Source: a virus
Taxonomy: Duplodnaviria; Caudoviricetes
Length of the DNA stretch: 55,054 nucleotides
IMG/VR virus record: IMGVR_UViG_3300025018_000181
Coordinates: 1 to 55,054 of that record
Strand: one strand, 5' to 3'
In this document: positions 1,574 through 23,717 of the stretch, piece by piece
Numbering within the stretch: the stretch's first letter is position 1
Layout: every line of letters starts with the position of its first letter
Program-made: the position numbers and the translations under genes
The notes under the pieces: generated by a model
Databases searched by the model: none
What the model was told of the DNA's origin: nothing
What the model saw: only the letters and a program-made list of their open reading frames with translations

Positions 1574-3142
1574 GTGTCGAACGCACTGTTCGAGGCGGCG
1601 CGCAATTTGCCTTACCCTGAGTTCGCCGAGACTTTCTTGAGCATCGTAGACAAAAAAGGCCGCGCTCGCCCTTTCATTCGCAACACAATACAAAAGAAAT
1701 ACAACTCGCTGAAGATCCTAGCTAAGCGGCGCGGATATAAGCGTTTTCTCGCACTTAAGTATCGTCGAGGGGGCATTACTACTGAGGAGCAGGCCCAAAG
1801 CTTCTACAGAATCCTACGAAACAACATGTCGGCCTTTACCTTGGCCCACACTATTGAAGACACTATAACCATCTTCAAGATTATCAACAACTATTACACC
1901 AACCTACCTGAGCAGGTGCAGCCCGAAAGGTCGCAAAGTCGCAAGAAGACTATAGAATTCCCAACACTGAACTCGCGGTTGACGGTCGGAACGGCCAAAG
2001 CTAAGGCTTCTGCCCGTGGATCTACGCTTCAAAAGGTGCATGGCTCTGAAGTCGCTTTCTGGCCAGGACAGACTACCGACATTGATAGCCTTATCGCTTC
2101 TCTGGGGGAAGCCTGTTCAGAGGGCGAAGTTGTCCTCGAAACAACCGCAAACGGCTACAACCACTATTATGAGCTGTGGAAGTCCGCAAAAACAAACTCC
2201 GAGTCTGAATGGGTTGGCATCTTTCTACCGTGGTTCCAAGACCCAACTAACTCACTTCCTCTGGTTGGCGACGAAGAGACTTATATACACGACACATTAG
2301 CGGAAGATGAGAAGTTTCTAATCGAGCACCATGGCCTTACTTTTGATCAGGTCAAATGGCGTAGGCGCAAACAGATCGAGCTTCCCCGCCTTTTCCTCCA
2401 AGAATACCCCGAAGACGACGAAACTGCCTTTCTGCTCACAGGTCGGGTCTACTTTGACAAAGATCTAGTTACTAAAGGCTTAAATGCCTGCGTATCTCCA
2501 AAGCAAATGCCCGGCGGCTATTCCTTGTATAACAACATGCTTTCAGTGTGGCGGGGGCCGAAGCCTGGACGGCAATATGTTATCGGCGCCGACGTAGCTA
2601 GTGGCACTTCTGGTGGTAAAGATGGTGACTTAGACTGGTCTGTAGCCTTTGTCTTGGATAAGCGCAGTGGTCAGCACATGGCTACTTTAACCTGCCAGCT
2701 CAAACCTCACGATTTTGCAGTCAAGTGTGTCGATCTCGCTAAAAAATACAACAATGCACTGCTCGGCTTCGAGAGACAACAGCACGGACATGCCGCGATT
2801 TCCTTCGCAGAGTTCGACTTAAACTATCCTAACCTCTACAAACACGTGGAATACAACTACAAAGGGAAGACCATCATAGAACAAAAGAAGCAGACAGGCT
2901 GGCCAACTTCTTCAAAAACACGGCCAATTATGCTAGATAGGCTGGCAAAACTGCTCTTAGAGCAAAACTTGGATTGCTTAGACTCAAGACTTTGGGAAGA
3001 AATGGGTGTCTTTGTTGCAGATACACACGGAAAGTGGGGAGCTTCTAACGGCGAACACGATGACCATATCTTTGCATACGGTATCGCCCAGTGTATACGT
3101 GACTACGAGCCAACTAAACCCACTATGACAGTGGTGGATTGA
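1574..3142 (+). CDS. terL: terminase large subunit
   Basis: LKYRRGGITT Walker A-like, HGSEVAFW Walker B, ETTANG coupling motif, GADVA and HDD nuclease acids. Confidence 0.95.
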   Translation: MSNALFEAARNLPYPEFAETFLSIVDKKGRARPFIRNTIQKKYNSLKILAKRRGYKRFLALKYRRGGITTEEQAQSFYRILRNNMSAFTLAHTIEDTITIFKIINNYYTNLPEQVQPERSQSRKKTIEFPTLNSRLTVGTAKAKASARGSTLQKVHGSEVAFWPGQTTDIDSLIASLGEACSEGEVVLETTANGYNHYYELWKSAKTNSESEWVGIFLPWFQDPTNSLPLVGDEETYIHDTLAEDEKFLIEHHGLTFDQVKWRRRKQIELPRLFLQEYPEDDETAFLLTGRVYFDKDLVTKGLNACVSPKQMPGGYSLYNNMLSVWRGPKPGRQYVIGADVASGTSGGKDGDLDWSVAFVLDKRSGQHMATLTCQLKPHDFAVKCVDLAKKYNNALLGFERQQHGHAAISFAEFDLNYPNLYKHVEYNYKGKTIIEQKKQTGWPTSSKTRPIMLDRLAKLLLEQNLDCLDSRLWEEMGVFVADTHGKWGASNGEHDDHIFAYGIAQCIRDYEPTKPTMTVVD

Positions 3143-7411: not shown

Positions 7412-8149
7412 GTGTTAACCGACCTCGCGTCTTTAAAATCTTACTTAAATATCAATGGCGCCCAGAGTGATACTGTGCTTACACAGATTATCTCTGGAGT
7501 CAGTGACGAGATTTTGAATTACTTGGGACGCGAGGTTCTGGTTAAGCTCAGGACGCAGACTTTTGATATCGAGTTTTTTCAGCGCGATTTTTACCTGCCA
7601 GCGGCTCCGACACATAGCATTGAGTCGATACGCTATGATCCTGACCGCGACTTTAGTTCGACAGCAGAATTAGAACTCGACGAGTATGACTGGGAATCTG
7701 AAGTCAGGCGCCGTAAGGGCATTATCTCACTTGACCGTCTTACACTTCTCCCAGGTCCTGGCCACTTGCGTGTTTCGTGGGTAGGAGGCTGGGCCTTTGA
7801 TCGTGACTATTACACGACACGACAAGATGACCCTCCAATGAGCCCTGCCACAGGCTCTAAGTATTTAGTTGGTGCGACACCGACTGGTGCCTGGGTAGGC
7901 AAAGAGAATCAAATCGCGACTTGGGATGGCGCAGCTTGGACGTTTCAAACGCACCTTGAAATCCTACGAATACTAAAACCCGGTCTGGAGAGTGCTTGCC
8001 TGAACCAGTCCTCTTATCAGTTCCGCACTAAAGACCTTCAAGGCACGCAAACGGCCTCGAATCGCACCGGAAGCCTGAATGTTCGCTCTTTAGGGCTCTT
8101 GAACAGCACACTAGACTATATAAGACCATACAGAAGTCGGCTGGTGTAA
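7412..8149 (+). CDS. head-tail connector (gp6-like) with DUF2793-like insertion
   Basis: LTDLASLKSYLNI..D..L..II, NYLGR, C-terminal IRPYR; inserted PP.SPA.G..YLVGATPTGAW.GKENQIA.WDG.W.F. Confidence 0.8.
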   Translation: MLTDLASLKSYLNINGAQSDTVLTQIISGVSDEILNYLGREVLVKLRTQTFDIEFFQRDFYLPAAPTHSIESIRYDPDRDFSSTAELELDEYDWESEVRRRKGIISLDRLTLLPGPGHLRVSWVGGWAFDRDYYTTRQDDPPMSPATGSKYLVGATPTGAWVGKENQIATWDGAAWTFQTHLEILRILKPGLESACLNQSSYQFRTKDLQGTQTASNRTGSLNVRSLGLLNSTLDYIRPYRSRLV

Positions 8150-8150
8150 T

Positions 8151-8867
8151 ATGGTGCAGTTCAGCGTTAAGAATCGAATTTCTCCTGTCTTAGACAAGAT
8201 GACTTTTACGTCTTTCACAGACCGCCAAGCTAAACGAGTTGTAAGAGAGACTGTAAGCGGGCTTCGGCTACACACTGCGCGGTTTAAAAAGTACCTTCGC
8301 GCTACTCGTTTTGTTGGTGGCGATGGCATTACGCAACGCACACGGCGCTTGTTTAACAGTGTTAAAGCGCGCATTGACGTTAGTGCTACAGGTCGCACGT
8401 TTACTTACGTTGTCAGTATTGGTGAAGAGCCACCTGGGACACCGCAAGCAAAGAAGCAAGAAGATGGTGGAAAAATCTCCGTGAAGCGGGGGAAGTACCT
8501 CACCATCCCTTTAGATGCAGCCAAAGACCCTAAAACACATGTGCCTACATTCACTAGTGCATATCACATAGACTTTAATACGTTCGTATTCAGGTCGAAA
8601 AAAGGAAAACGTTTCATTGCTGCACGCTTCCCTAGTTATAGCGAGGCAGTACAAGAGTTAGGGCTGACGCGGCGCCCTCGAATCGTACTTAAGCAGGGTA
8701 GAACCGTTGTTTTACTTCTATATCTCTTGCGCAAGAGGGTGACTTTACCCAAAAGACTAAAGTTTAAAGAGACTTTTCTTTCAGCACCTATGGTTAAAGA
8801 TAGAGAAGAGAGACTCAGTTCGGCAATCCAAGGCTCGTTATCTCGAGCTTTTGCAAGGTTAGGGTGA
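8151..8867 (+). CDS. neck/virion morphogenesis protein (HK97 gp10-like)
   Basis: Basic protein with RT.RL..S, QEDGG.I..K.GKYL.IP and V.LPKR motifs; neck gene position. Confidence 0.65.
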   Translation: MVQFSVKNRISPVLDKMTFTSFTDRQAKRVVRETVSGLRLHTARFKKYLRATRFVGGDGITQRTRRLFNSVKARIDVSATGRTFTYVVSIGEEPPGTPQAKKQEDGGKISVKRGKYLTIPLDAAKDPKTHVPTFTSAYHIDFNTFVFRSKKGKRFIAARFPSYSEAVQELGLTRRPRIVLKQGRTVVLLLYLLRKRVTLPKRLKFKETFLSAPMVKDREERLSSAIQGSLSRAFARLG

Positions 8868-8871
8868 AATA

Positions 8872-9291
8872 ATGACTTTGGATCATCAGGCGTTAAATGA
8901 AAGCGAAGACGTGCTTCTTGAGCGCCCTCGTCAGTCTTATCCCACTCCTGGCTGGGATCGCGGAGACGCAAAAACGACGGCTTTTGCAGTTCTCACCGGA
9001 AAGAAGTATCGTATTGACCTAGCTACAACTGGAAACGTTGTAGCAACGTTGCCTACGAGTCCAGTTGTTGGTGAGCGCGTGGGCTTCTGGATTTATGCTG
9101 GACACGCAACTCGTAAGCTAGTTATCACCGCTGGTAGTTCCATCATTGCAGCCCCTGGCGCGGCACTTGGCGCGACACACTCGTTTCCTTATGGCACCAA
9201 TGACTTCGAGTACATTGAACTCGAGTTTGAAGGGACTTACTGGGTGGTCACACAGCAGACTTGGCTCTCTTCTAATATTATCAACGTTTGA
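8872..9291 (+). CDS. hypothetical virion structural protein
   Basis: GNVVATLPTSPVVGERVGF motif typical of baseplate/fibre beta modules. Confidence 0.55.
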   Translation: MTLDHQALNESEDVLLERPRQSYPTPGWDRGDAKTTAFAVLTGKKYRIDLATTGNVVATLPTSPVVGERVGFWIYAGHATRKLVITAGSSIIAAPGAALGATHSFPYGTNDFEYIELEFEGTYWVVTQQTWLSSNIINV

Positions 9292-9316
9292 GAAGCCCCC
9301 TTGTGAGGAGTAACCC

Positions 9317-10087
9317 GTGAGCTACGCAGTAGACCTCGACCAGTTAGACGTAGAGCTAACGACTATCGGAGATACTCAATTAACTTTGACGCTTTTAGCT
9401 GTGCCAACCGATGGCGCACTAGTATCTGTCGAGGTTTTGTATCGTCCAGTAGGTGTAGGGGCTTGGTCTACTGCACTCTTCTCATCTCTTTCCATTAACA
9501 CAACTTTAGTCATAACAGGACTCACTGAAAGCACGCGATATGAACTCTTTGCGCGCTGCTTAAGTGCTTCTGATGAGTCTAATCCAGATGGGTTCGTTGT
9601 TTTTTACACTCGCTCTAGCTCTCAGCCCGCTGCTGACCCAATAAATGAGCGCATTCTTGATAATATCGTGACTGCGCTAGGGAGCATTGTGCAAGGCCCA
9701 GGTTACTTCAACACTTTAGTTGAGGCGACTCGAAGAAACTTGAGCAACTTCGAGTCAATGAATCAACCTTGTGCGCTGGTTTATGTCGAAGACTCCGATG
9801 AGGAGGTCATAACCAATGGCCTTACACAAAGGGTTTTACTACATACGGTGATTCAAGTTCACTTTAGAGACTTTGCCGACATAGATCAAGCTTGCAGTCG
9901 TTGGATTCATGATGTTAAGAAAGCTGTAGGGCAAGACGACACGGTCGGGGGTCTGGCGGTTAACTCAGAAGTAAAAAGTACCGTTGCGGTTCACAGTGAA
10001 GATCAGCCCGGCGTAGGTGCTGTTATAGTATTCCTTGACGTCGTTTATCGGCATTTGCGAACTGACCCAACTTTAGTGAGGTGCTAA
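9317..10087 (+). CDS. tail terminator/completion protein with N-terminal FN3 domain
   Basis: N-terminal V.YRPVG..W...ITGL...T.YE FN3 motif; C-terminal ERIL.NI..AL..I...GY and D.TVGGLA. Confidence 0.7.
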   Translation: MSYAVDLDQLDVELTTIGDTQLTLTLLAVPTDGALVSVEVLYRPVGVGAWSTALFSSLSINTTLVITGLTESTRYELFARCLSASDESNPDGFVVFYTRSSSQPAADPINERILDNIVTALGSIVQGPGYFNTLVEATRRNLSNFESMNQPCALVYVEDSDEEVITNGLTQRVLLHTVIQVHFRDFADIDQACSRWIHDVKKAVGQDDTVGGLAVNSEVKSTVAVHSEDQPGVGAVIVFLDVVYRHLRTDPTLVRC

Positions 10088-10088
10088 A

Positions 10089-10490
10089 ATGGCGACTTTG
10101 CTTGACACGGATTTTGCTGCAACACCTCAAAACACCGCAACTGTCAAAGTGCTCGCCACAGGCATTTTAGTAGAGTCTTACGGCTCTGTCAGAATTGCGG
10201 TTAATCTCAATTTTAATAGCCAGACTAACATTGCTTTCCAAGTCAATGTGTGTGAGACGGAAGACGGCACATACGTTCCGCTCTATATAGCTGGGGCTCA
10301 CGCGTCGAACCCTGCGTATCGCACCTATGGAAAGTCGGGCCACGTTTTTGAAGCTGCGGAAGTCGGTGTGGGCGATCAGTGGATCACTTTTATCCTTTTG
10401 GTATCCGGGGTCAAATACTTTCAGCTCACTGGACTAGGGAGTGGAGCCGTAATAGTAAACCGCGTGGTAATTGATGGTGGCAAAGCATAA
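10089..10490 (+). CDS. hypothetical structural protein (beta-sandwich-like)
   Basis: In structural operon, tightly coupled, beta-strand pattern. Confidence 0.5.
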   Translation: MATLLDTDFAATPQNTATVKVLATGILVESYGSVRIAVNLNFNSQTNIAFQVNVCETEDGTYVPLYIAGAHASNPAYRTYGKSGHVFEAAEVGVGDQWITFILLVSGVKYFQLTGLGSGAVIVNRVVIDGGKA

Positions 10491-11215
10491 TGTTTCCATG
10501 GAATGGTAGTCCTGGCTCGCAGAGCGCTTCTAGCGGTAACGGTAGTGGCCCATCGGCCACATTCGGAAATGCCACGCTCAATACTTTAGTGGACAGTGTT
10601 TTAGCCTATTATCCGGGCAGTACACTAAATGAGCAGAATGTAGCAGACAAGGGTTTTCTCCGTCCCTTAGGCACCGGGGTTAGTACTGTTGACGGAAAAA
10701 CTCGCATAGCAGAGAGCGCGGGTGTTAAAAAGCTCTTTGCCGCTATTCCGGGAGACTTCAGGCAATACACGACTTGGGTACCATACACTATCTCGTTTAA
10801 GATTGATCCTGCGCGATTAACCACAAGCCCTAGTGGTGACTTTTTACAGGCGTGCTCTGGCTCGGCACCCTTTGGGTTGGTAGTTAACTTCAGTAATACA
10901 AATCTACTACGCATACACACGGGTATAACTGGGTATGTAGGATTTGCCGATACGGGCGGGTCTTTGTTCGTAGGCCCCGGGACCGAAGAGCAAGTTTCAT
11001 TTATTTGCCGTCTTGAGGCCGGCGTACCTACATTGATCTTACGTGTTGGAGGTGTCACCAAGTTTACCTGGGCTGGCCTAACTGTTATAGGGGATATAAA
11101 CGGTCTCGTATTTACACACCCTGGGGACTACAGAGACATATATTTTTTCAACACGGGCCTTACGGATGCACAAGAGACACTTCTAGCGTCCCATAACTAT
11201 ACCCCAACTAACTAA
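10490..11215 (+). CDS. accessory virion protein, LamG/concanavalin-like; N-terminus MFPWNGSPGSQ
   Basis: LVDSVLAYY... and C-terminal DIYFFNTGLTDAQ, a LamG-type ending. Confidence 0.55.
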   Translation: MFPWNGSPGSQSASSGNGSGPSATFGNATLNTLVDSVLAYYPGSTLNEQNVADKGFLRPLGTGVSTVDGKTRIAESAGVKKLFAAIPGDFRQYTTWVPYTISFKIDPARLTTSPSGDFLQACSGSAPFGLVVNFSNTNLLRIHTGITGYVGFADTGGSLFVGPGTEEQVSFICRLEAGVPTLILRVGGVTKFTWAGLTVIGDINGLVFTHPGDYRDIYFFNTGLTDAQETLLASHNYTPTN

Positions 11216-11228
11216 GAGGATCTGCCGA

Positions 11229-13154
11229 ATGTTTCCATGGAACGGTAGTCCAGGGTCTCAAGGTAGTACCAGTGGTGGCGGTGGCAGTGGCGGTGACGCC
11301 AGCGCCAGTGTTGAGGTTTACACTGAGGTCGCGACTCTAGCGGCGCTGCTCGCTGCTCGGGCCAATGGGGCTCGTCTTCTCGTGACTAATGATATCGCGA
11401 TGAGTTTGACCGACACGATTGATCTTACCAGTTACACCAGCCTCACTATCGCTATTCAAGATGGCAAAAAAGTCAGCCACAGCGGCACAGCTAATATCTT
11501 CTCCGCAAGCTCGGGGACATGCCGACTGACTTTAGAGACAGGAGCGCGCTCTCCATTGGCGCCGGCCTTTGAAGTGACCGGCACCGGAAAAATCGCGGAC
11601 TCGAGTGGCGTGCTTATACTCGACTGGTCGAAGCGCCTGCACATCGACGGCCCGTCTGGCGCGTGGACGCCATTCGGCACGGGCGTAAAGCTCGACGGCG
11701 ACGGTCTTGTCGTGGATTGCGGGAATGGGCTCGTAACAATCGGACATGGTTACGGGCGGATCAAGTCTTTGATTGCAAACGGAGGCGGGTCGAGTTGCGC
11801 CGTGCTGCTTAAAGTCGGCTGCGGACCAGTCACGTATCGCGGTCAGTTTCGCTCTTACGCAGGCTCAATGAACAGCCACTATGCCCTCTCTGTTCAGACC
11901 GCGTTCAACCCTACTATGAGCCCGGTCGGCCCGATCCAATTCGACACTACCGGTCAGACCTACACTCCATCGGTCCTCGCTAGCGGCCTCGTAAGCCTGA
12001 CTGGTGTCCACGGTACCGACAACAGCTATGTCCCGCGCGTCGGTCTTGCGGATCATTCGCGATGCCTGAATTCGCGAATCGTTCCGGTCTGGGTTAACAC
12101 TGGCTATTCGGGAAGCTTCAGCCAGTGCTACTTCCAGGGTGGCCTGTTTGAGTCTTCGGCGAAGTGCGGCGACATCCAGTCTTGTACTTTCGCCGTGGCG
12201 ACGACGACGACATTCCCGAGCGGATCAAAGCCGCGAATCGTCGGTGGCTTGATCCATGGAACCACCGTTTTTCAATCAGGGTCGGAGCCAATCGTCCAGG
12301 CTGTTAACGTGGTGGGAACAATCACCATCAACAGCGGCGCCAATGGTCGATTTACAGCCCTTCAAGACGGCTCTGGAACCTTGACGAATAGCGACCCGCT
12401 TAGTGTTGTGACCCTCAGCGAGAACGTGGCCTGGGACACTACGCCAGCGACTCGTCGTTGGGTTGATTCGAGCGGCAACCCACTGCCAGAGCTTAACGCG
12501 TTGCTGCCTTACCTCGTGTGTTATTTCGATTTCAAGGAGGAACCAAGCCCAAGCAAAGCTCCGTTTGGCCAGCCAAGCACCGCGTCATGGGATGGCAGCA
12601 TATCGCTGAGTTCAGATGGTGTAGATGGTAAAGGGCTCAACTTCGCCGGGTCTGGCGATAACGTTCTTGTTCCCGTCAGGTTTAGCCCGCTAGGGTCGGC
12701 GGAATACACTGTAGCGCTCTTCTACAAGCCCGTTGATGCGACTCCTTTAGGCGCCTGCACGGTGGTCTCTCTAACAGACGGGGCCTCAAGCGCTGGCGAA
12801 TGGGACCTTAATCACCTTTCCAGTGGCATTCTGTCCTTTTGGAACGGCGGAGGAAGCACCGACGGGTTAACGGCGTTGACCAATGGGGTAGCTTCCCATG
12901 TTGCGTTTCGCAAAAGGCGGGTTTCCGGGACTCCCACGTACGAAATGCTTTTAGATGCTGTTTTGGAAGCGTCGACGACTGGTAACGCGTCGACTGCGCC
13001 CAACGTGAACAGCGTCTTGCACGTTGGTGACTACGGCGGGAACCCCTCAAATCCTGGCGTTTACAGCGTTTTGTGCGCTTTCTCGTGCGCTCTGGCTGAC
13101 GCGCGGATCGCAGAAATGGCCGCTGGTGCGCGGCTGATAGGAGCGGGTCTATGA
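11229..13154 (+). CDS. receptor-binding/fibre-like protein (beta-helix-like middle plus C-terminal LamG-like domain); N-terminus MFPWNGSPGSQ
   Basis: Gly/Ser/Thr-rich beta repeats; LVCYFDF..., YTVALFYKP, HVAF, LHVG, FSCALADARI LamG pattern. Confidence 0.65.
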   Translation: MFPWNGSPGSQGSTSGGGGSGGDASASVEVYTEVATLAALLAARANGARLLVTNDIAMSLTDTIDLTSYTSLTIAIQDGKKVSHSGTANIFSASSGTCRLTLETGARSPLAPAFEVTGTGKIADSSGVLILDWSKRLHIDGPSGAWTPFGTGVKLDGDGLVVDCGNGLVTIGHGYGRIKSLIANGGGSSCAVLLKVGCGPVTYRGQFRSYAGSMNSHYALSVQTAFNPTMSPVGPIQFDTTGQTYTPSVLASGLVSLTGVHGTDNSYVPRVGLADHSRCLNSRIVPVWVNTGYSGSFSQCYFQGGLFESSAKCGDIQSCTFAVATTTTFPSGSKPRIVGGLIHGTTVFQSGSEPIVQAVNVVGTITINSGANGRFTALQDGSGTLTNSDPLSVVTLSENVAWDTTPATRRWVDSSGNPLPELNALLPYLVCYFDFKEEPSPSKAPFGQPSTASWDGSISLSSDGVDGKGLNFAGSGDNVLVPVRFSPLGSAEYTVALFYKPVDATPLGACTVVSLTDGASSAGEWDLNHLSSGILSFWNGGGSTDGLTALTNGVASHVAFRKRRVSGTPTYEMLLDAVLEASTTGNASTAPNVNSVLHVGDYGGNPSNPGVYSVLCAFSCALADARIAEMAAGARLIGAGL

Positions 13155-13432
13155 GCGTGGTTGAGAGTTACAGAGCAGCAGTAGAAACGCGTGAGTCCTT
13201 ACGGCAACCTGCAGAGGAGGCGCGTAAGGCGGCTCATACCGCAAGAAAGGCGTGGATTAAAGCCGTGGAAGACACAAGGGGTCCGACGGCGGCTGAGCAA
13301 AGCGCGGTCATCGCTATGGGGTCTGCCATGCGGGATCTCCAAGCGCGCCGCTCTGAGCTTTTGGCCATTGAAAGCCTGACTGACGCGGAGGCTAGCGAAT
13401 TTGCGGACATTAAGTCGGAGCTTGGCGAATGA
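13151..13432 (+). CDS. hypothetical helical protein
   Basis: 93-aa ORF with ATGA overlaps on both sides. Confidence 0.6.
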   Translation: MSVVESYRAAVETRESLRQPAEEARKAAHTARKAWIKAVEDTRGPTAAEQSAVIAMGSAMRDLQARRSELLAIESLTDAEASEFADIKSELGE

Positions 13433-13740
13433 GCGTTAATCGACATTGCCGTTATTGCCGTCGCATGATCCCCGACGGAGCCAAGCGCTGCAACTCATCG
13501 CGTTGTCGCTTGCTTCGGAATGTTTTAGCAACCCCACATAAGTGCCGCCTAAATGGCGTCAACGTTGAGTTGGTGGGTGTTAAAACCTATGATGAACTTT
13601 GCGAGCTGGCAGGTCAGCCCATCGGGGCGACTTGCACCTACGTGTTCAAAAGCGGCGGAAACGGCGAACTAAAACCTGAGCAGTCTTTGGGCATTACCGG
13701 GCCATGTTCAATCTCATGCGTTGTGACAGGAGTTGCGTGA
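13429..13740 (+). CDS. Zn-ribbon plus multi-ubiquitin-like (beta-grasp) protein
   Basis: HCRYC..IP....C...RC, then LNG.NVE....TYDELCELAG....TCTY....GELKPEQSL.I.....SCVVTG, resembling Multi_ubiq (PF14452). Confidence 0.6.
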   Translation: MSVNRHCRYCRRMIPDGAKRCNSSRCRLLRNVLATPHKCRLNGVNVELVGVKTYDELCELAGQPIGATCTYVFKSGGNGELKPEQSLGITGPCSISCVVTGVA

Positions 13741-14720
13741 TGAGATTTAGAAACCCACTCCTGGACTCTTACGAGTCTAGCCTTGTAGCCGTGCTGCCTT
13801 TCCGAGAAATAGACGATAATGAACTGCTAGCCCCTCGAAACTATAAGACGCAGCGGCGTTGCGCACCTTTCTATCCATTAACGCAAGGTGCCTCTTATCG
13901 AGACGTCGCTATTGACAAGGGCTTTGAAACCCGAGATAGCTTTAATCTCACAGACTTTACGCTTTGCTTTTGGGCGCAGGCCCTCGCGTACGGGCCTGGG
14001 GCGAACCCTTTAGTGTCTATGAAATTTGGTACAACTTGGCTACACCTAACCCGTGATGGGGCGACGGCCTACTTTTTAAATAACAGTGGTATACAAGTTG
14101 GGCCAAGCCCGTGGACAGACGTTGATAGCTCCTCTGACGAGGGCGACTACTTTCCAGTGATCGTAACCCGTGCTTCGGGTGTCATGACTATACAACTCGG
14201 TGTGAGGGTATTAAGTTACAGCTCGGGTTCTCATATTACAAGCCCACTTAATGAATTTGGCTATCACCAGCCACTCTTTAACTTGAACCTGCGTCTCGGC
14301 TCAATGTACCTTTGGAATGTTGCCCTCGGCAGCGCAGCTATAAGTGTATTGACGGGATTTGTTACCAGCCTTGTTCCAGACCCATTAGGATACGTGTTTG
14401 ACGATCTAGGCTTTATTTATGGCTACCCAGTAGAAGAACTGATACAGCACGATACAGTCTCGACGTCCCAACAAGAAGGGCGCTCACTTCGGCGCCGAAG
14501 AAATGAGCGCCAAAGGCGCACATTTCAGCTTACCAACGGCGTTACGCCGCTGTGCGAATGGGAAGAATTCTTAGAGCAGGCTTTAGTCCACACCCCAATT
14601 ATGTGGACACCGCCAAACGAAGTAGAGCCTTTAGAAGTTTTAGTCGATGTAAGAAGTATCCAAACTTCTTATGTCAGTAACAAGGTTGTTCAAGTAAGCC
14701 TATCGCTTAGGGAGATCTAG
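13740..14720 (+). CDS. LamG-like domain fused to gpM/distal-tail-like domain
   Basis: DFTLCFW and MYLWNVAL LamG pattern; C-terminal RRTFQL...WTPP gpM-like; start taken at ATG 13740 (TGATG overlap). Confidence 0.55.
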   Translation: MRFRNPLLDSYESSLVAVLPFREIDDNELLAPRNYKTQRRCAPFYPLTQGASYRDVAIDKGFETRDSFNLTDFTLCFWAQALAYGPGANPLVSMKFGTTWLHLTRDGATAYFLNNSGIQVGPSPWTDVDSSSDEGDYFPVIVTRASGVMTIQLGVRVLSYSSGSHITSPLNEFGYHQPLFNLNLRLGSMYLWNVALGSAAISVLTGFVTSLVPDPLGYVFDDLGFIYGYPVEELIQHDTVSTSQQEGRSLRRRRNERQRRTFQLTNGVTPLCEWEEFLEQALVHTPIMWTPPNEVEPLEVLVDVRSIQTSYVSNKVVQVSLSLREI

Positions 14721-14721
14721 C

Positions 14722-16116
14722 ATGGCAGACTGCGCGTTACGAAATAGAATCAAGCAGCTTGCTGCTAAGCTGCAAAACGCCGAAGAAACTACGGAAACGT
14801 TGACTTCAGCACACGTCTTTCCTACGGTCTTCGAGATTAACCCGAACCAAAACGTTTCAACTTTCTTGCGCCAGCCTTACCGGAGTGACTTGAGCAAGGA
14901 AGCGAACCTGACGGGGATTATCGAGTCCACGTTGTCTTTTGAAGCAGAGTTGAAAGGCACAGGATCCGCAGGTACCGAGCCGAACTATAGTCACTTCCTG
15001 ATTGGCTGTGGCTTTATGTCGGTAAAGCTTGTTGAGCTGACTGTTTCGGCGGCATCGGGAACGCTCGCGCTCGGTGAGCTTTTGACTGATAGCGTTGGCA
15101 ATACTTACTATCTTTTCCACCTTCTCCGTAATGCCACTAAAGTGGTCGCTTATCGCTACTCTCTTAATATGCCCGGCACGCTCGGGGCTCCGATCAGTAT
15201 TGCAGGTAGCGGCAGTGGTAGCTATGCGGCAACTATCGACAGCATCAATGAAAACTACGGCTGGGGGTTCAAGCCACAGTCCAAGACGGCCCGCATTGTT
15301 CCTCTCGGAGCTATCACTGGCACGTTTTTGCAGGGTGAACTCGTAACAGGTACAGGCGTTTCGGGCATTGTACTTTACGTTGAAGGCTCGAACAAGAACC
15401 TCTGGTATATCCCACTGACTGGGGTTATCGGAAATACTGTTGCGCTCACTGGGCAAGTCTCAAATGCGACAGGGACTACAACTGCGGCTTCGGGATGCTC
15501 GCAAAGTTCTCCCCCTCTAACTTTCTACGTTAACGAGGATGGAGTTCAGCGCATTTTTGGCGGCGCGCGTGGTCGCGTAAACTTCAACTTCAACGCAGTC
15601 GGGGAACCGGCTCGTATGCAGTTCGAGTTTCAAGGTCCGGGTGCTGTTAACCCCACCGATACCCCGGCATTCGCTGAGGGGACTGACTCAGTGATTCCCC
15701 CGAAGTTCCAGGGTGCCGCGATCCAGCTTGGCGATCCGACTTCGAGCCCTTTCTTGCCGGTCATGGCTGGCATGAACGTCCAGGTAGATAATACCTTGAC
15801 GAGCCGCCAAGATGCGACCGCAGCCTCAGGACTTCGCTCGACACTTATTGTTGACCGCGACTTTAGTGGTCAGATGAATCCCGAAGCAGTTTCCGTCGGG
15901 ACGTATCCTTTCCTTGCTCGCTTGTTCTCGGATACGCTTACTCGCTCTTACTTCCAAGTCGGTTCGAGCAATGGCAATATCGTTGAACTGATCGGTGAAC
16001 GGATGCAGTTCACCAATGTTCAGAACGGTAATCGTGACGAGATTCTAATCAATGACGTTTCATTTCGTTTCGTTCGCACCATTGGCGATGACGAGTTCCA
16101 GATCGTTGTTCGCTAG
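14722..16116 (+). CDS. major tail tube protein with internal inserted domains
   Basis: LSFEAELKG.G.AGT.P....L.GCG N-terminus; GARG.V.F....GEP..M.FEF.G; precedes chaperones and TMP. Confidence 0.8.
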   Translation: MADCALRNRIKQLAAKLQNAEETTETLTSAHVFPTVFEINPNQNVSTFLRQPYRSDLSKEANLTGIIESTLSFEAELKGTGSAGTEPNYSHFLIGCGFMSVKLVELTVSAASGTLALGELLTDSVGNTYYLFHLLRNATKVVAYRYSLNMPGTLGAPISIAGSGSGSYAATIDSINENYGWGFKPQSKTARIVPLGAITGTFLQGELVTGTGVSGIVLYVEGSNKNLWYIPLTGVIGNTVALTGQVSNATGTTTAASGCSQSSPPLTFYVNEDGVQRIFGGARGRVNFNFNAVGEPARMQFEFQGPGAVNPTDTPAFAEGTDSVIPPKFQGAAIQLGDPTSSPFLPVMAGMNVQVDNTLTSRQDATAASGLRSTLIVDRDFSGQMNPEAVSVGTYPFLARLFSDTLTRSYFQVGSSNGNIVELIGERMQFTNVQNGNRDEILINDVSFRFVRTIGDDEFQIVVR

Positions 16117-16125
16117 CCTCTTCTC

Positions 16126-16181
16126 CACAACACTATAGCGCGGCGCGGTGCTAAGCTATAGTGTTGTGAACTGCGCCGTGC
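16126..16181 (+). promoter_or_regulatory. 14-bp perfect hairpin whose loop can pair downstream (pseudoknot or alternative fold)
   Basis: CACAACACTATAGC (16126-39) pairs with GCTATAGTGTTGTG (16155-68); GCGCGGCGCGGT (16138-49) pairs with ACTGCGCCGTGC (16170-81). Confidence 0.65.
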
Positions 16182-16198
16182 TAACAAGGAGACTTGCC

Positions 16199-16561
16199 AT
16201 GGCTATTGCTATTGGACCAAACACCACGAAACCTTATATCTTGGCGGAAGATCGCGAGCTGCCTAAAGAGCAGCAAAGCGTTTTTCACGTCTCGGTCTTG
16301 ACTTATCTACGCGTGATCGAGCTGCAGGAAGTCATCGACGATCTTGAGAGCGGCGCGAAAACACTTAAAGAGACTGCTGAAGTCTACATGAAAATTCTTC
16401 CTTCTTGTGTGTGCCGCTGGGATAACTACAAAGACGCTGAAGGAAATGATATCCCGCACGGGGACTTTAGTCGATTCTCATTTACCCAGTTGCAAGAGTT
16501 GATTCTTGCGGTTTTCCAATCGCAGAAGCTTAGCGAGAAAGAAGCGGGAAACTCGAACTGA
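16199..16561 (+). CDS. tail assembly chaperone (lambda G-like)
   Basis: AGGAG RBS then ATG 16199; ends with slippery G GGA AAC. Confidence 0.8.
   Translation: MAIAIGPNTTKPYILAEDRELPKEQQSVFHVSVLTYLRVIELQEVIDDLESGAKTLKETAEVYMKILPSCVCRWDNYKDAEGNDIPHGDFSRFSFTQLQELILAVFQSQKLSEKEAGNSN
16546..16552 (+). other. programmed -1 ribosomal frameshift site GGGAAAC
   Basis: X XXY YYZ heptamer; the -1 frame is open into ORF 16570..16980. Confidence 0.85.
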
Positions 16562-16569
16562 TCGCCCGC

Positions 16570-16980
16570 ATGGCTGACGGAAGCTTACTAGAAGGGCATG
16601 GGCAAACATGTCCTGAAGGTGATATCTTCCGTGCAGCTTGGGGTTGCGATCATGATCTCGAAGATATCCGCATGTCGCGTTGGCTTACACGCTGCTCAAA
16701 GTGCCGAGGAGATGGCTGCAATGCTCCAGGGTGTTTTGGTGGCGTTCAGAAGATGCCTCGCTGCCCTCTGTTCTACTTAAGTCAAGCCCGTGTTGAGCGG
16801 CGCGTATTTCAAGCGTTCGCGCTCTTGAAGAATTATAACACTTGGCCTGCTGTTGGTGGCCTACTCGCACAGTCCAATTGGTTCATTGAGGCAGTTTGCC
16901 ATATCGGTAACTGTATGAATGAGCTTGAGCGCAAGCGCATCGAGGAGGCTCGTAGTGGCCGACAAAAAGGTGGAGGTTAG
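16570..16980 (+). CDS. tail assembly chaperone frameshift extension (lambda T-like), Cys-rich
   Basis: In the -1 frame of the upstream chaperone; WP.VGG...Q..WF motif; just before TMP. Confidence 0.75.
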   Translation: MADGSLLEGHGQTCPEGDIFRAAWGCDHDLEDIRMSRWLTRCSKCRGDGCNAPGCFGGVQKMPRCPLFYLSQARVERRVFQAFALLKNYNTWPAVGGLLAQSNWFIEAVCHIGNCMNELERKRIEEARSGRQKGGG

Positions 16981-19900
16981 GTTACAGCTCTCGGAGAATG
17001 TTAGTGAGATTTTTCGGGGCCTGCGTAAGAGTATTCGTGGCGCCTCTTTAAGTCTCAAAGAATTTGAAGAGGAATTTCGTCCTGTTGGCACTGCAGCCGC
17101 TAAGACGGAGAAATTCCTCTCCAAGTTCGCTAAAGAATCCGCCGCTGGCATCAGTGACGTAAATCGTCAGCTTAAAGTCCTCGGCATCACTATGCGGTCT
17201 GGGCTTCCAGTTGACAACGCATTAACTCGCATCTCCCGCGATGCAATCACTGCAGAACGCCGCTTGCGCGGCGTCGCGCAAGCAGCATCGACTTTGCGCG
17301 CTCGATTAAGTGCGCGAGGACAGGGTATTGCTAGTGTTGCGGCAGTTGCAGGTGCTGGCAACACTAGTGATTTAAGCTCAGCTACGCGATTAGGTTTACT
17401 TACACGACTTAAAGGAGCGCAAGGGACCGGCCAAGGAAGCACGGCTTCTCTTGCTGCTCTAGTCGCACTTGCGAGTAAGACCACCAATACCCAAGCCTTG
17501 TCCAAGGTAAATCGCCTAATCGGACAAGTCGCAGGTGGTAGTGGTCCGATTAGTCTTAGAGACGCTATAACGAAACTAGAGTCTGAACTCAAAACGAGCG
17601 CTGGTACTGGTCGCAGAGGACAGACTTCTGGCGTTATTAAAACGGACCTGTTTGCTGACGTTAAGAAGGCTGCAAAAAAGACTTTTGTCGATGACTTCAA
17701 GATGGGCATAAAACGCGCTATTATAAATAGTCGCAGGCGTGACCGGCTTGTTAGAAATACCTCAGGACTGCTAGGGGTAGAAGAAATTGCGGCTAGTCGG
17801 CTTAGAGAGAGAGCTGCTGCCGCGGAGCAGAACAGAGCCGAAAATGCGAGGCGCTTAAGACTAGACAGAGAGGAAGCGCGTGCGGGTATTAACCGTGTAG
17901 CAGCCAGGAGAACTTATCTTGCGCGTACACGGCCTAAAGCAACTGTGCCTCAGATTCCGCGAGGCTCACTCTTGGCAGGTCTACGGCAATTTCGACTTCT
18001 GAGGCTTCCGGAGCTAGAGGGCGACGTGCTTCCGACCCTAGAGGGCGACGTGCCTTCGGCCTCAGAAGGGAATGTAGGTGCCCGACCGAAAGCAAGAAAT
18101 CGTTCAGTAGCCAAAGGGCTACCGAGAGCTCAAGAGCGGCGTCGAGCCATTCAGGCTAATGCACTTCAACCACGCAGTCTCTTGCCTGTAGAAGACATTG
18201 AGGGTCTTAAAGCAGCTATCTCGCAGGCAGAACCTCGAATCGCGGCTTTGCGATCCAACCTGTCAAATTTAAGTAAAGTCCCTACAATGCAGCGTTTTAC
18301 CGAGTCACTTGCGCGAGGCATCTTGCCCGCAAAAGAGCTGGTAAGCGCCCTTTCTTACTTCGGGACTCCTGCACTAAAGTTAGGCTTAAGAACCTTAAGT
18401 GTTGGGTTCAATGCGGCCCGCGCTTCTTTGAATGCTGTGGCTGACGCTGCATTCGGGGCCTTGCGTGTACTTCGCTCTTTGGCTCTGCCCGCTGCTATCT
18501 TCGGTACGATTGCAGTATCCGCTTTTGCTAAAGTATCTTCATCAATTATACGAACCACTGGGGAGTATGAGCTTTACCGCACGCAGTTGCGTGCGGTCGT
18601 AAAAGACATCAATGTAGCCGACCAAGAGTTTGAGCAGCTTCGCACTGAAGCGATTCAGTCACCTCTCGGGGCTAAAGACTTCGTCGAGTCTTTCGTCCGG
18701 TTACGAGCCGTCGGCGTGCCTGCTGCACGAGAAACAATCCGTGCCCTCGCAGACATTGCCATTACTTTCAACCGTGACTTAAAAGATGTTGCAAGTGCAT
18801 TCATCGGTGTTGAGACTGAGGTGCTACGGCGCTTAGGTATCTTGCTGGTTCGTACTGGGTCACGTGCTTTTATCCAGTCGCAAGGAATCGTTCGTTTCGT
18901 CAATAATGATATTGAGTCTATCCGCGCGGCAATCTTAGATATTACCCAGAAGACGTTACCAGATGCAGCGGCTCAGGTTCGTAAGACCCTGATCGGGCGC
19001 TTTCGTGAGTTTCGCTCTTTACTCGACGAAGTTGCTTTCGATATAGGCACGGCTTTTAGCCCAGCTCTTAAGTCGAGTCTTGAAGGGCTCATCGATTTTG
19101 TCAATAAAGCTCGTCCAGCAATCAAGTCTTTTGCTAACCTACTAGTAAAAGATGCCGCAAGAGGCTTTAGAGACTTAACGACTTTAGCGAAAAAGACATT
19201 TCAAGCCTTATTCTCGCCAACACAATCCAATATTGAATACTTTGCTGGCATAGAGGAGAGCTTAAAGAACATAGTTACAAGCCTTAGCCGCCTGCTCTTC
19301 GAGTCTTTAACAACCACTTTCTTGGCCGTAGGAGAGGTGCTTAGAGCGACTTTAGTTGGTAGTACTGAAGAAGCGCTTGCACTTATATCTGACCGGTATT
19401 TGCGCTCTACTTTTGGAACCTCTGGAGCAACAGCGGCAAAAAACTTTCTTACTAATACCGACTCTAAGTTGACCGGGTTTTTTAAAGATTCCGCCGGTAG
19501 TGAGATCAGCAAGGCTGAATTGCTGGAGATACTTAAGCCACCGCAAGCCACAGCATTGGGGCTTGACTTAAGTCGCATAAGCGAAAAAGATACTTTCACG
19601 GCGTCAGGTCTCTTTGCCCGCTTTTCATCTATTGCTGAGTTTGAGGCCGCCGCAAAAACCGCTGAAAAGAGCTTTGCAAGACTAACCGGTGAATTCAAGA
19701 CATTCAGCGAGCTTGTTGAACTTGAAGAGTCGGGTGGCTTACCTAGTGGGTTCAGACTGCCTTCTCGCCCGTCTTCAGGAACCCCTGAAGGGCGAAAGGC
19801 TAGAGTTGGCTCTCTGGAGGATATAGTCCGCGATAACCTCGGCCTCCCGGAGTCTCGCGAGACCGCCTCACGGCGCCGAAATGATAATGTTGCGGCTGCC

Positions 19901-22705: not shown

Positions 22706-23058
22706 TGAACAAACTACCTGTCTCTTCTGAGCCTAGCGCTGTAGCGACACTGACGATCGAACCTTCTATAGCCACACGCGTGACGAAGACTTTAGACACT
22801 AGGGAGCTAGATACTGATGGTGGATATCTCTCGGTAGTGCCTACCTTCTCTCGAAGCCGCACAGAGTATGAACTAGCCTGGGCCTCACTATCTGCGGCCC
22901 AAGTAAACAGTTTACGGACTTTAGTTCATCTCTGTAAAGGGCAATTCTCAAGCTTCTTGTGGGGCAGTATACGGGTTCGATTTACTGTTAACCCAACTAT
23001 CATACTAGTCAATCCTGGTGTCTACGATGCTCGTGCAACCGTGGAGGTGATACCTTGA
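22702..23058 (+). CDS. distal tail protein (gpM-like)
   Basis: Position after TMP; YELAW..L, G....FLW, VRF pattern. Confidence 0.7.
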   Translation: MMNKLPVSSEPSAVATLTIEPSIATRVTKTLDTRELDTDGGYLSVVPTFSRSRTEYELAWASLSAAQVNSLRTLVHLCKGQFSSFLWGSIRVRFTVNPTIILVNPGVYDARATVEVIP

Positions 23059-23717
23059 GGCAGCTACCCGCAGCTTTTATAGCCGCAAAGAATAAGACCG
23101 TCAACCCGAATGCTTGGGTCTGGTGTCTTCAAATTCAGGTTGACTCGCAGACTGATGACGGCTTCTTTATTACCGGAAACAATGAGCCTGTTACACTGGG
23201 CTCAGATGTTTACGATCCTTATCCTTTGCGTGTTGATGAGATGTCAGAAGGACTCGAAGGCGCCGAAAGTGGAGTCAACATCATCATAAATGATGTTGTC
23301 AGCGACTTTATGGCTTACGTTATTCCTGGAGAGGGCCTCATAGGGAATAATGTCCTCATGACATTAGTAAACCTTGAAGACCTTAATAGCACTTATGTGC
23401 TTGATTTTAAAATCAACTCTATACGCGCGCGAGGGCCGGCCCTTAATATCCAGCTGGTTGCTTTCAACACCTTCGATCGCGGCTTGGGGAACTTGACTTA
23501 CCAAAGAAACTTTTGTCGGTGGGACTTCACCGGAGAAGAGTGTGGGGTCGATCCAAGCGTCCCCTTAGCAGGCGAAATTTGCACTAAACGACTGCAAGGA
23601 ACATTTGGGTGTGAGTATTGGGGTGATAGGGAAGCACTTGCGGCCTTTCCGAAGCTTCATCCTATGCGTTTTGGTGCCTTCCCGTCACTAATCACTGGGC
23701 GTTCCTTCGAGGTCTAA
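23055..23717 (+). CDS. minor tail/hub protein (lambda gpL-like)
   Basis: Y.PYP, C-terminal CRW.F.GEECG..C.K....C..FGAFP Cys motif. Confidence 0.8.
   Translation: MRQLPAAFIAAKNKTVNPNAWVWCLQIQVDSQTDDGFFITGNNEPVTLGSDVYDPYPLRVDEMSEGLEGAESGVNIIINDVVSDFMAYVIPGEGLIGNNVLMTLVNLEDLNSTYVLDFKINSIRARGPALNIQLVAFNTFDRGLGNLTYQRNFCRWDFTGEECGVDPSVPLAGEICTKRLQGTFGCEYWGDREALAAFPKLHPMRFGAFPSLITGRSFEV

What the first reader, a model, noticed from the sequence alone, without database searches (positions are those of the whole stretch)
13429..13740. Phage-encoded Zn-ribbon plus multi-ubiquitin-like protein among tail genes: candidate anti-Bil/Bub decoy or tail-tagging factor
Seen: a 103-aa gene with an N-terminal HCxxC...C...C ribbon and a C-terminal LNG.NVE....TYDELCELAG....TCTY....GELKPEQSL.I.....SCVVTGVA. 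By eye this fits the Multi_ubiq (PF14452) beta-grasp pattern. It ends in a Gly with a 2-aa extension (TG-VA). Known: bacterial Bil/Bub systems activate such Ubls with E1/E2 after JAB-protease trimming, and Bil conjugates them to the phage central tail fibre. Lambdoid gpI/gpK are a Ubl/JAB pair, and they are absent here between gpL and gpJ. Inference: with no phage E1, E2 or JAB gene, this Ubl could be a decoy that titrates a host ubiquitin-like defence, or a gpI substitute.
Basis: partly seen in the sequence, partly recalled or inferred. Interest (0 to 1): 0.75.

Follow-up and report, generated by a model that had tools for sequence, protein, structure and literature searches.

The report
Phage zinc-ribbon plus BubA-like ubiquitin-fold protein
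An uncultured groundwater phage carries, among its tail and appendage genes, a small protein that joins a zinc-binding module to a ubiquitin-like fold most like the tag protein of bacterial Bub anti-phage systems, but what it does is untested.

Summary
The 103-aa ORF at 13429-13740 is real. It has its own Shine-Dalgarno site and overlaps both neighbouring genes in a late structural operon. It has only three detectable relatives, all metagenomic.

**What is supported**
- The N-terminus is a very basic module (pI 11.2). Its four cysteines keep the spacing CxxC-x10-C-x4-C in 3 of 3 relatives that cover it.
- Residues 37-100 are predicted as a beta-grasp (AlphaFold2 with 4 sequences, pLDDT 85-90 there).
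- The nearest solved structures are bacterial BubA/multi-ubiquitin proteins (VIA Z 9.7-7.2). Ubiquitin itself scores 6.4 or less.

**What is not supported**
- Sequence-level membership of PF14452 fails: no Pfam match, and profile comparisons are only marginal.
- Gly101 is kept in 2 of 4 members, and its codon lies inside the AGGAG ribosome-binding site of the next gene.
- No E1, E2, JAB, BubE or gpI family was found in the 84%-complete record.

**Reading**
- A non-covalent accessory for the LamG appendage proteins encoded around it: about 0.4.
- An anti-Bub/Bil decoy: about 0.25.

Neither was tested. This scan has noted orphan phage Ubls before, on other DNA.

The parts
13417..13420 (+). Shine-Dalgarno GGAG of the gene, 8 nt before the ATG
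   Evidence: Read directly from the sequence. Other genes of the block have similar sites at 7-8 nt.
13429..13740 (+). Coding sequence, 103 aa plus stop: zinc module, linker helix and beta-grasp
   Evidence: ORF list and translation. Relatives P0002, P0006 and P0009. Identical in a contig of a second sample, X2 record 1, which covers 12800-14178 with 0 differences.
13447..13506 (+). Cys4 zinc module (C7, C10, C21, C26) within a very basic N-terminal 36 aa
   Evidence: The spacing CxxC-x10-C-x4-C is kept in 3 of 3 sequences covering it. The N-terminal part has pI 11.2, with 9 K+R against 1 D+E, and pI 9.8-10.0 in P0006 and P0009. Model confidence here is only 60-74. Metal binding was not tested.
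13498..13530 (+). Linker helix, residues 24-34
   Evidence: DSSP on model m23c00bb338fb. L33 is invariant.
13537..13728 (+). Single beta-grasp (ubiquitin-like) domain, residues 37-100
   Evidence: AlphaFold2 with 4 sequences gives block pLDDT 85-90. VIA: Z 9.7, rmsd 2.4 A over 69 aa to 9cd2 (E. coli Type II BubA); Z 8.9 to 9d5b; generic Ubls score 6.8 or less. ESM Atlas: TM 0.59 to a PF14452 cluster.
13728..13732 (+). AGGAG, the ribosome-binding site of the next gene (ATG at 13740), written across codons T100-G101-V102
   Evidence: Codon table and junction printout. This gives a non-chemical reason for Gly101.
13151..13432 (+). Upstream coupled gene (context): 93-aa helical, acidic-tailed protein without Cys
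   Evidence: ATGA overlaps at both ends. No family match below E 0.07.
13740..14720 (+). Downstream coupled gene (context): 326-aa LamG-like protein with a gpM-like ('minor tail') C-terminal end
   Evidence: Weak matches: Laminin_G_3 E 0.026, Phage_min_tail E 0.18, phrog_14 E 0.017. Atlas feature hits: 0.95 to a viral LamG cluster and 0.94 to a Phage_min_tail cluster.
11229..13154 (+). Context: 641-aa appendage-like protein with a C-terminal LamG-like domain
   Evidence: Laminin_G_3 E 2e-5, 25.2 bits, just under the 27.6 cut-off. It shares its first 11 residues with the gene at 10490.

Best explanation
**Shown.** This is a real late-operon phage gene for a two-module protein. A strongly basic Cys4 zinc module is joined by a short helix to one beta-grasp domain. 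The nearest known structures of that domain are the C-terminal domains of bacterial BubA (Multi_ubiq) proteins.

**Inferred.** The protein is not itself a conjugated tag. It works non-covalently, and most likely serves as a small adaptor or assembly factor for the virion appendage proteins encoded on either side of it: the LamG-type 641-aa and 326-aa proteins and the 93-aa helical protein. In this picture the beta-grasp is a protein-binding surface. The basic zinc module would hold an acidic partner or nucleic acid.

The fold was probably captured from a host Bub-type operon and then reused.
For: - **Operon position.** The gene lies inside an unbroken run of late genes from 10089 to 16116, with gaps of -4 to +13 nt. 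It has ATGA and TGATG overlaps at its own two ends and SD sites at 7-8 nt. Promoter-like and terminator-like sites are not above the shuffled expectation in 8000-17500 (10 against 7.0 +/- 2.4; 9 against 10.0 +/- 3.5). It is therefore made together with its neighbours, not as a separately controlled insert.
- **Neighbours.** They look like appendage proteins: weak LamG hits, a gpM-like C-terminal end and a tail terminator upstream.
- **Fold.**
- **Not a conjugation substrate.** Gly101 is kept in 2 of 4 members and is encoded inside the next gene's AGGAG. No E1, E2, JAB, DUF6791 or DUF6527 was found in six frames at E<=10.
- **Precedent.** Lambda-type tail assembly protein I has a ubiquitin-like domain and acts in tail assembly (Iyer et al. 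2006, PMC1779556, passages read).
Against: - No binding partner has been shown.
- Neighbour annotations are all below curated cut-offs.
- The contexts of the three relatives could not be seen, so linkage to appendage genes rests on this one genome.
- The specific likeness to BubA, rather than to gpI or generic Ubls, has no obvious reason under a purely structural role and fits the decoy rival better.
- The record is 84% complete, so enzymes could lie in the missing part.
Confidence: 0.4

Rival explanations
1. Anti-defence decoy. The BubA-like beta-grasp occupies the Ubl-binding site of a host Bub (or Bil) E1, or of the BubE protease, but cannot be transferred. This blocks tagging of phage tail proteins while they are being made.
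For: - The six best-ranked solved structures are all BubA/multi-ubiquitin proteins (Z 9.7, 8.9, 8.7, 8.1, 8.1, 7.2). They stand about 3 Z units above ubiquitin, which scores 6.4 or less.
- The match is to the C-terminal domain, the one bound by the E1 and predicted to be bound by BubE (PMC11601596, passages and section 10).
- Family-conserved positions coincide in the hhalign register: N42 with the invariant Asn, ELA with ELA, G79 with the conserved Gly. The tail has the same length as in Type II BubA.
- The gene is orphan, with no conjugation enzymes found.
- Late expression coincides with synthesis of the tail proteins that Bil targets (10.1101/2023.09.04.556158, abstract start in the listing).
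Against: - No sequence-level membership; profile tests are marginal.
- The host is unknown, so it is not known whether it carries Bub or Bil.
- Tight translational coupling inside structural genes is unusual for counter-defence genes (established knowledge, not tested here).
- The family has only 4 members in 1.84 billion representatives. That is odd for a useful inhibitor of systems found in 19 of 401 sampled Bacteroidota genomes.
- No anti-Bil or anti-Bub protein turned up in the literature searches.
Confidence: 0.25
2. Nucleic-acid-binding late protein. The basic zinc ribbon binds RNA or DNA, for example to regulate translation of the coupled operon or to contact the DNA end at the neck. 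The beta-grasp mediates dimerisation or docking.
For: - The N-terminal 36 aa has pI 11.2 (9 K+R, 1 D+E), and this basic character is conserved in P0006 and P0009 (pI 10.0 and 9.8).
- The same Cys spacing appears in the weak match to the ribosomal protein eL40 zinc ribbon (E 5.8, not significant).
Against: - Neither zinc-finger match is significant (E 0.15 and 5.8).
- The N-terminal model confidence is low (60-74).
- No nucleic-acid-binding family was matched.
Confidence: 0.1
3. Conjugatable tag. After removal of Val-Ala, Gly101 is activated by host E1/E2 enzymes and attached to a phage or host protein.
For: - The tail T-G-V-A places Gly about where ubiquitin's terminal glycines lie after strand 5.
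- 12 BilA homologues carry overhangs of 2-9 aa after their conserved Gly (10.1101/2023.09.04.556158, methods passage).
Against: - Gly is present in only 2 of 4 members and is encoded within the next gene's AGGAG.
- No JAB, E1 or E2 was found in the record.
- A tag that depends on a defence system's enzymes would be lost with them.
Confidence: 0.05
4. Functional replacement of lambda gpI (tail assembly protein I) in tail-tip assembly.
For: - No gene lies between the gpL-like and gpJ-like ORFs.
- PF06805 and JAB are absent.
- gpI has a ubiquitin-like domain (PMC1779556).
Against: - The gene lies about 9.3 kb upstream of the tip module.
- It lacks the second domain of gpI, since the protein ends 3 residues after the beta-grasp.
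- A lambda-type tail assembly protein in BFVD matches only at TMq 0.40, E 0.097, worse than BubA.
- The tip genes resemble the DUF2460 / phiJL001-gp84 / Phage-tail_3 type rather than lambda's.
Confidence: 0.05

Closest known systems
BubA, the ubiquitin-like protein of Type I/II Bub operons (Pfam Multi_ubiq PF14452). Solved examples: 9cd2 (E. coli ZDHYS365), 9d5b, 8u38, 9d59/9d5a, 9ea8/9eav.
   Same: - Single beta-grasp with the best structural agreement of anything in the PDB (Z 9.7, rmsd 2.2-2.4 A over 68-69 aa).
- An architecture of 'variable N-terminal domain plus one beta-grasp', as described for Ubl1 forms (10.1101/2024.11.21.623966, section 5).
- The conserved Asn in the first hairpin, the ELA helix motif and a loop Gly coincide in the alignment, and the tail length is the same.
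   Different: - No Pfam match at E<=1 or at E<=10 in six frames; identity is only 16-17%.
- Encoded by a phage, without the E2-E1, JAB-E1 or DUF6527 genes that flank real BubA genes (checked here in 2 operons).
- The N-terminal domain is a Cys4 zinc module. That is not among the N-terminal types named in section 5 of the paper; its Table S1 could not be seen.
- The terminal residue is not conserved. Citrobacter BubA ends in Gly229, and 12 of 12 sampled Bacteroidota C-terminal-type domains end in Ser.
BilA, the Ubl of Bil (bacterial ISG15-like) defence operons
   Same: A ubiquitin-like fold used in phage-bacterium conflict. Some BilA proteins carry short overhangs after the terminal Gly.
   Different: - No BilA structure appeared among the 50 rows shown in either VIA list. 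That is inconclusive, not an exclusion.
- No PADLOC model matched any of the 4 members.
- No BilB, BilC or BilD equivalents were found in the record.
Lambda tail assembly protein I (TAPI/gpI, PF06805)
   Same: A phage-encoded ubiquitin-like domain in a tail gene cluster.
   Different: - gpI is ThiS/MoaD-like, has a conserved terminal Gly and a second C-terminal domain, and sits between gpK (JAB+NlpC/P60) and gpJ (PMC1779556).
- Here there is no PF06805 match, no second domain, no JAB and a different position.
Zinc ribbon paired with ubiquitin in eukaryotes (Ub-eL40 fusion; Cuz1 AN1 finger plus Ubl)
   Same: A small Cys-rich zinc module and a ubiquitin fold in one polypeptide. eL40 has the same CxxC-x10-C-x4-C spacing in the printed alignment.
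   Different: - The matches are not significant (E 5.8 and 0.15).
- Domain order is reversed relative to Ub-eL40.
- This is a resemblance only, not evidence of kinship.

Membership tests
Multi_ubiq (PF14452) / BubA | Beta-grasp fold closest to solved BubA/multi-ubiquitin domains | tested here: met
   Model pLDDT is 85-90 over residues 31-100. VIA Z 9.7/8.9/7.4/7.3 against 48,161 chains. The top six of 1000 in the second look are all BubA-type. Foldseek TMq 0.51-0.54 with probability 1.00, but E 0.02-0.07. Atlas TM 0.59. All of this rests on predicted models from a 4-sequence alignment.
Multi_ubiq (PF14452) / BubA | Match to the Pfam model above its gathering score (24.5 bits) | tested here: not met
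   No family at E<=1. No six-frame match at E<=10.
Multi_ubiq (PF14452) / BubA | Profile-level sequence similarity to genuine members | tested here: inconclusive
   hhalign: P 0.086 (probability 0.7%) against 12 C-terminal-type domains and P 0.0084 (4.8%) against 14 other domains. HMM of the C-terminal type: 159, 1, 52 and 47 of 2000 shuffles reach the real score for the four members. Other-type HMM: 200, 64, 2000 (no score) and 422 of 2000.
Multi_ubiq (PF14452) / BubA | Encoded in an operon with E1 (ThiF), E2 (DUF6791 or fused) and DUF6527 or JAB | tested here: not met
   PF00899, PF14464, PF20590, PF20137 and PF00179 all gave no six-frame match at E<=10. The record is 84% complete. Positive control: two real operons show Multi_ubiq + DUF6791/ThiF + DUF6527.
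Multi_ubiq (PF14452) / BubA | Conserved C-terminal residue presented to the E1 (Gly229 in Citrobacter BubA) | tested here: not met
   The tails are TGVA, TGAA, KDEAVV and PDEPATV, with no conserved terminal residue. The Gly101 codon lies in the next gene's AGGAG.
BilA (Bil operons) | Sequence or structural match to BilA | tested here: inconclusive
   PADLOC gave 0 families for 4 of 4 members. No BilA entry is among the rows shown by VIA; a family that is not listed is not excluded.
Lambda tail assembly protein I (PF06805) | Match to the family model | tested here: not met
   No six-frame match at E<=10. No Pfam hit for the protein.
Lambda tail assembly protein I (PF06805) | Position between gpK (JAB+NlpC/P60) and gpJ, and a second C-terminal domain | tested here: not met
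   The gene lies at 13429, while the gpL-like and gpJ-like ORFs abut at 23717/23718. The protein ends 3 residues after strand 5. No JAB was found.
ThiS/MoaD sulfur carriers | C-terminal Gly-Gly and an E1-like partner | tested here: not met
   The protein ends in Gly-Val-Ala. There is no ThiF. VIA Z is only 6.2 (5mpo_B), 5.8 (2cu3_A) and 5.4 (2lek).
Cys4 zinc ribbon / treble-clef module | Four conserved Cys in two pairs with conserved spacing | tested here: met
   C7, C10, C21 and C26 have identical spacing in 3 of 3 sequences covering the region.
Cys4 zinc ribbon / treble-clef module | Zinc-ribbon fold and bound metal | tested here: inconclusive
   The model shows a short hairpin (residues 5-6 and 13-14) plus a helix from residue 24, at pLDDT 60-74. 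Fold searches barely tested this part (notes). Metal content is not testable with these tools.

The most novel reading that the evidence does not exclude
The protein is a phage-encoded mimic of the host's BubA tag. It was captured from a Bub operon and fused to a zinc module. It jams the Bub (or Bil) E1 or the BubE protease during tail assembly. If so, it would be the first described inhibitor of a bacterial ubiquitination-like defence.
Probability: 0.2. Interest if true: 0.8.

Novelty: new variant of a known kind. Interest (0 to 1): 0.5.

Why it matters
Bacterial Bil and Bub systems attach ubiquitin-like proteins to targets. Bil is known to tag phage tail proteins. My five literature searches found no phage counter-measure to either system.

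A phage gene whose fold is specifically BubA-like, without any conjugation enzymes, is a concrete candidate that can be tested cheaply. If it proves instead to be an assembly factor, it would be a second, independent use of a ubiquitin fold in tail building, beside lambda gpI. It would also be an example of a defence-system fold reused by a virus.

Either way, the zinc-module-plus-Ubl architecture is not among the N-terminal types named in the section I read of the Ubl survey.

Tried and rejected
**Searches for the protein and its relatives that found nothing useful**
- The single-sequence AlphaFold2 model (pLDDT 61.3) gave no useful Foldseek match. I did not use it further.
- tblastn against 50,697 phage records gave only an E 0.3 match, to two records of one Serratia phage. 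Megablast of 9000-24000 found nothing.
- Pattern scans for relatives found none: viral contigs, metagenome contigs and genome contigs.
- Scans with the two downstream genes found none. The word-based search with the 326-aa neighbour returned only itself and a 100%-identical shorter (233-aa) form. A syntenic-slot survey in related phages was therefore impossible.
As a result, the 15.5-kb contig of P0006 and the 63.4-kb contig of this phage could not be read.

**Hits set aside**
- Five of the 8 phmmer hits are long proteins (840-4190 aa) matched in 5-11 stretches. I looked at two of them (P0003, P0004), saw tandem repeats, and set all five aside as repeat artefacts. The other three were not inspected.

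**Tests without a usable result**
- Complex prediction of the Ubl with its two flanking gene products scored 0.00 and gave 'no answer'. This is no evidence either way.
- No RNA holder was listed among the sequencing runs.
- Laying contigs from 4 runs showed the gene intact, but no listed variation within it where covered. No test of selection was possible.
- The genome-contig scan with the deoxynucleoside kinase gave 4 distant loci in unrelated organisms. This gives no host.
- BFVD gave no match at E<=0.001.

**Ideas considered and dropped**
- A 2Fe-2S ferredoxin-like reading of the beta-grasp: C69, C93 and C97 are not kept in P0006 or P0009.
- The AN1 and eL40 zinc-finger matches are not significant.

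**Not seen**
- Supplementary Table S1 of Gong et al. (the Ubl architecture catalogue) could not be seen and may list zinc-ribbon forms.
Full report
**The record.** The window is a linear IMG/VR virus record of 55,054 bp, estimated 84% complete.
- It encodes a siphovirus-type late block. This includes a portal (PF04860, E 5.9e-45), a capsid protein (PF05065, E 6.2e-21) and a head-tail connector.
- The late block also holds a tail terminator (phrog_4204, E 2e-7), a 1928-aa tape measure and a gpJ-like protein (PF13550, E 4.6e-13).
- It also carries its own replication and nucleotide-metabolism genes. These are a DUF5906 primase-helicase type, family A polymerase, SNF2 helicase, ThyX, MazG, a DHH phosphoesterase and a deoxynucleoside kinase.
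- No tRNA was found.
- The same stretch occurs in aquifer, groundwater and hot-spring metagenomes: 10 rows in 7 studies, one of which may be the source.
- In a second sample, one contig covers 12800-14178 without a single difference. No insertion, deletion or joint was seen in four runs.

- A GGAG lies 8 nt before its ATG.
- Its start overlaps the stop of the upstream gene (ATGA). Its stop overlaps the start of the downstream gene (TGATG).
- From 10089 to 16116 the genes follow each other with gaps of -4 to +13 nt.
- Promoter-like and terminator-like sites in 8000-17500 are no more frequent than in shuffles.
- The gene is therefore part of the late structural transcript and is translationally coupled to its neighbours.

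**Relatives are very few.**
- An exhaustive phmmer search of 1.84 billion representatives gave 8 proteins at E<=0.001.
- One is the query. Two are credible: P0002 (72 aa, 62% identical over residues 38-103) and P0006 (122 aa, 30%).
- Five are long repeat proteins matched in 5-11 stretches. I saw two of them and set all five aside.
- A profile search added P0009 (123 aa).
- All come from metagenomes and carry no informative name.
- P0002 begins without Met on a 1.6-kb contig and is probably cut.
- The four-sequence alignment (A2) has 13 invariant columns.
- The N-terminal cysteines keep the spacing CxxC-x10-C-x4-C in 3 of 3 sequences that reach that far.
- The N-terminal part is strongly basic (pI 11.2 here, 9.8-10.0 in the two distant relatives). 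The C-terminal part is mildly acidic (pI 5.5-5.7).

**Family libraries are silent.**
- Pfam found nothing at E<=1. PHROGs found nothing better than E 0.47.
- NCBIfam found nothing. PADLOC found nothing for any of the 4 members.
- The PF14452 model itself found nothing in six frames at E<=10.
- PDB sequence searches gave only insignificant zinc-finger matches: the Cuz1 AN1 finger at E 0.15 and eL40 at E 5.8.

**The fold.**
- With the four-sequence alignment, AlphaFold2 gave mean pLDDT 80.6, with five models at 76.6-80.6. Blocks from residue 31 to 100 scored 85-90, and the N-terminal 30 residues scored 60-74.
- The order of elements from residue 37 is strand, strand, helix, strand, strand, strand. 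That is the beta-grasp order.
- Foldseek against the PDB had no match at E<=0.001. Its list is nevertheless made of beta-grasp proteins. The best TM-scores (0.51-0.54, probability 1.00, rmsd about 3 A) are five bacterial multi-ubiquitin entries.
- VIA-align, run independently of Foldseek against 48,161 representative chains, ranked four such entries first. These are 9cd2 (Z 9.7, rmsd 2.4 A, 69 aa), 9d5b (Z 8.9), 9d59 (Z 7.4) and BubA(155-229) in 9eav (Z 7.3). Generic ubiquitin-like domains scored 6.8 or less.
- In the second look at Foldseek's best 1000 chains, the first six entries are all of this kind (9.7, 8.9, 8.7, 8.1, 8.1, 7.2), and ubiquitin follows at 6.4.
- The tool warns that a best Z of 7-8 is common for models without real relatives. 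The margin is therefore real but not large.
- A different predictor agrees. The ESM Atlas's own model of this protein (pLDDT 0.70) has as nearest cluster a family in which 100% of 84 members carry PF14452 (TM 0.59 by query, residues 20-103).
- Among predicted viral structures nothing is close. Viral ubiquitins and one lambda-type tail assembly protein appear at TMq about 0.4.

**Sequence-level test of membership.**
- I collected genuine PF14452 domains from 19 of 401 sampled Bacteroidota genomes. From these I built one alignment of 12 C-terminal-type domains (A3) and one of 14 other domains (A4).
- hhalign of the family against A3 and A4 gave P 0.086 and 0.0084, with low probabilities.
- An HMM of A3 scored the four members better than all but 159, 1, 52 and 47 of 2000 shuffles. 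The A4 HMM did worse.
- The alignment register agrees with the structural one. It puts the family's invariant Asn42 on the invariant Asn of the Bub domains, ELA on ELA and Gly79 on a conserved Gly.
- My conclusion: probable distant kinship, not demonstrable by sequence with only four members.

**What the closest relatives are.**
- Two of the single-domain, 93-aa PF14452 proteins were checked in their genomes. Each is followed by a DUF6791+ThiF protein and a DUF6527 protein, with an HTH / peptidase M78 pair nearby.
- That is the Type II Bub operon described by Ye et al. (PMC11601596; abstract, passages and section 10 read).
- 9cd2 is from E. coli ZDHYS365, the strain whose Type II BubA that paper tests.
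- Gong et al. (10.1101/2024.11.21.623966; sections 3 and 5 read) describe Ubl1 forms with N/G-rich, coiled-coil or DUF1508 N-terminal parts. My sample shows coiled-coil-like and other long N-terminal extensions. A zinc module is not named there. Their Table S1 was not available to me.

**The C-terminal glycine.**
- In Bub and Bil the terminal residue enters the E1 adenylation site.
- Here the tails are TGVA, TGAA, KDEAVV and PDEPATV, so nothing is conserved.
- In this phage, codons 100-102 (ACA GGA GTT) spell AGGAG 7 nt before the next gene's ATG. The glycine may therefore owe its presence to the ribosome-binding site.
- No ThiF, JAB, DUF6791, DUF6527, UQ_con or gpI family is detectable in six frames at E<=10. 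Note that 16% of the genome is missing.

**How it most likely works.**
- Shown: it is a late, coupled gene for a basic zinc module joined to a BubA-like beta-grasp, with no conserved conjugation end and no enzymes.
- Inferred: it acts by binding, not by being attached.
- My first choice (0.4) is an adaptor or assembly factor for the appendage proteins around it. Expression is coupled to theirs, and lambda gpI gives a precedent for a ubiquitin fold in tail assembly (PMC1779556, passages).
- The decoy reading (0.25) explains better why the fold is specifically BubA-like, and it fits the timing of tail-protein synthesis. However, it has no direct support, the host is unknown, and the family is tiny.
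- A nucleic-acid-binding role for the basic zinc module (0.1), true conjugation by host enzymes (0.05) and strict gpI replacement (0.05) are less likely, for the reasons listed under rivals.

**Novelty and literature.**
- Five full-text searches returned no paper describing a phage inhibitor of Bil or Bub, or a zinc-ribbon-Ubl phage protein.
- The anti-defence catalogue paper mentions ubiquitin-like conjugation only in its reference list.
- Earlier AI notes of this scan report orphan phage Ubls on other genomes. I did not test those, and they are not independent evidence.
- I file this as a new variant of a known kind, of moderate interest.

Noticed in passing
L006-L025 (12 loci listed); operons in L032 5622-7444 and L033 4587-6406: All 12 C-terminal-type Multi_ubiq domains sampled from Bacteroidota end in an invariant Ser (…T-D/N/G-x-S), not Gly. 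The two I checked lie in Type II Bub operons. The published Citrobacter BubA ends in Gly229, so the activated residue may differ between Bub subgroups.
   Followed up: partly
window 10490-10522 and 11229-11261: Two adjacent appendage-like genes begin with the same 11 residues, followed by a Gly/Ser-rich stretch. It could be a shared docking peptide.
   Followed up: no
window 1574-3142: The 522-aa ORF in the terminase position, just upstream of the portal gene, has no Pfam match at E<=0.1.
   Followed up: no
window 14722-16116: The 464-aa protein in the major-tail-protein position, just before the two chaperone-sized ORFs and the tape measure, matches nothing in Pfam, PHROGs, NCBIfam or PDB sequences.
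   Followed up: partly
window 12800-15000: Contigs at 99% identity or more to this phage occur in groundwater/aquifer runs of 2017 and in hot-spring runs of 2025, from different studies. This is an unusually wide occurrence for one genotype.
   Followed up: partly
window 22702-26972: The tail-tip genes weakly resemble the DUF2460 / phiJL001-gp84 / Phage-tail_3 set rather than lambda M-L-K-I-J. No peptidase gene lies between them.
   Followed up: no
window 13429-13740 (protein cluster P0001): The same protein is recorded on 4 contigs, the longest 63,398 bp. That is longer than this 55,054-bp record and fits the 84% completeness estimate.
   Followed up: no
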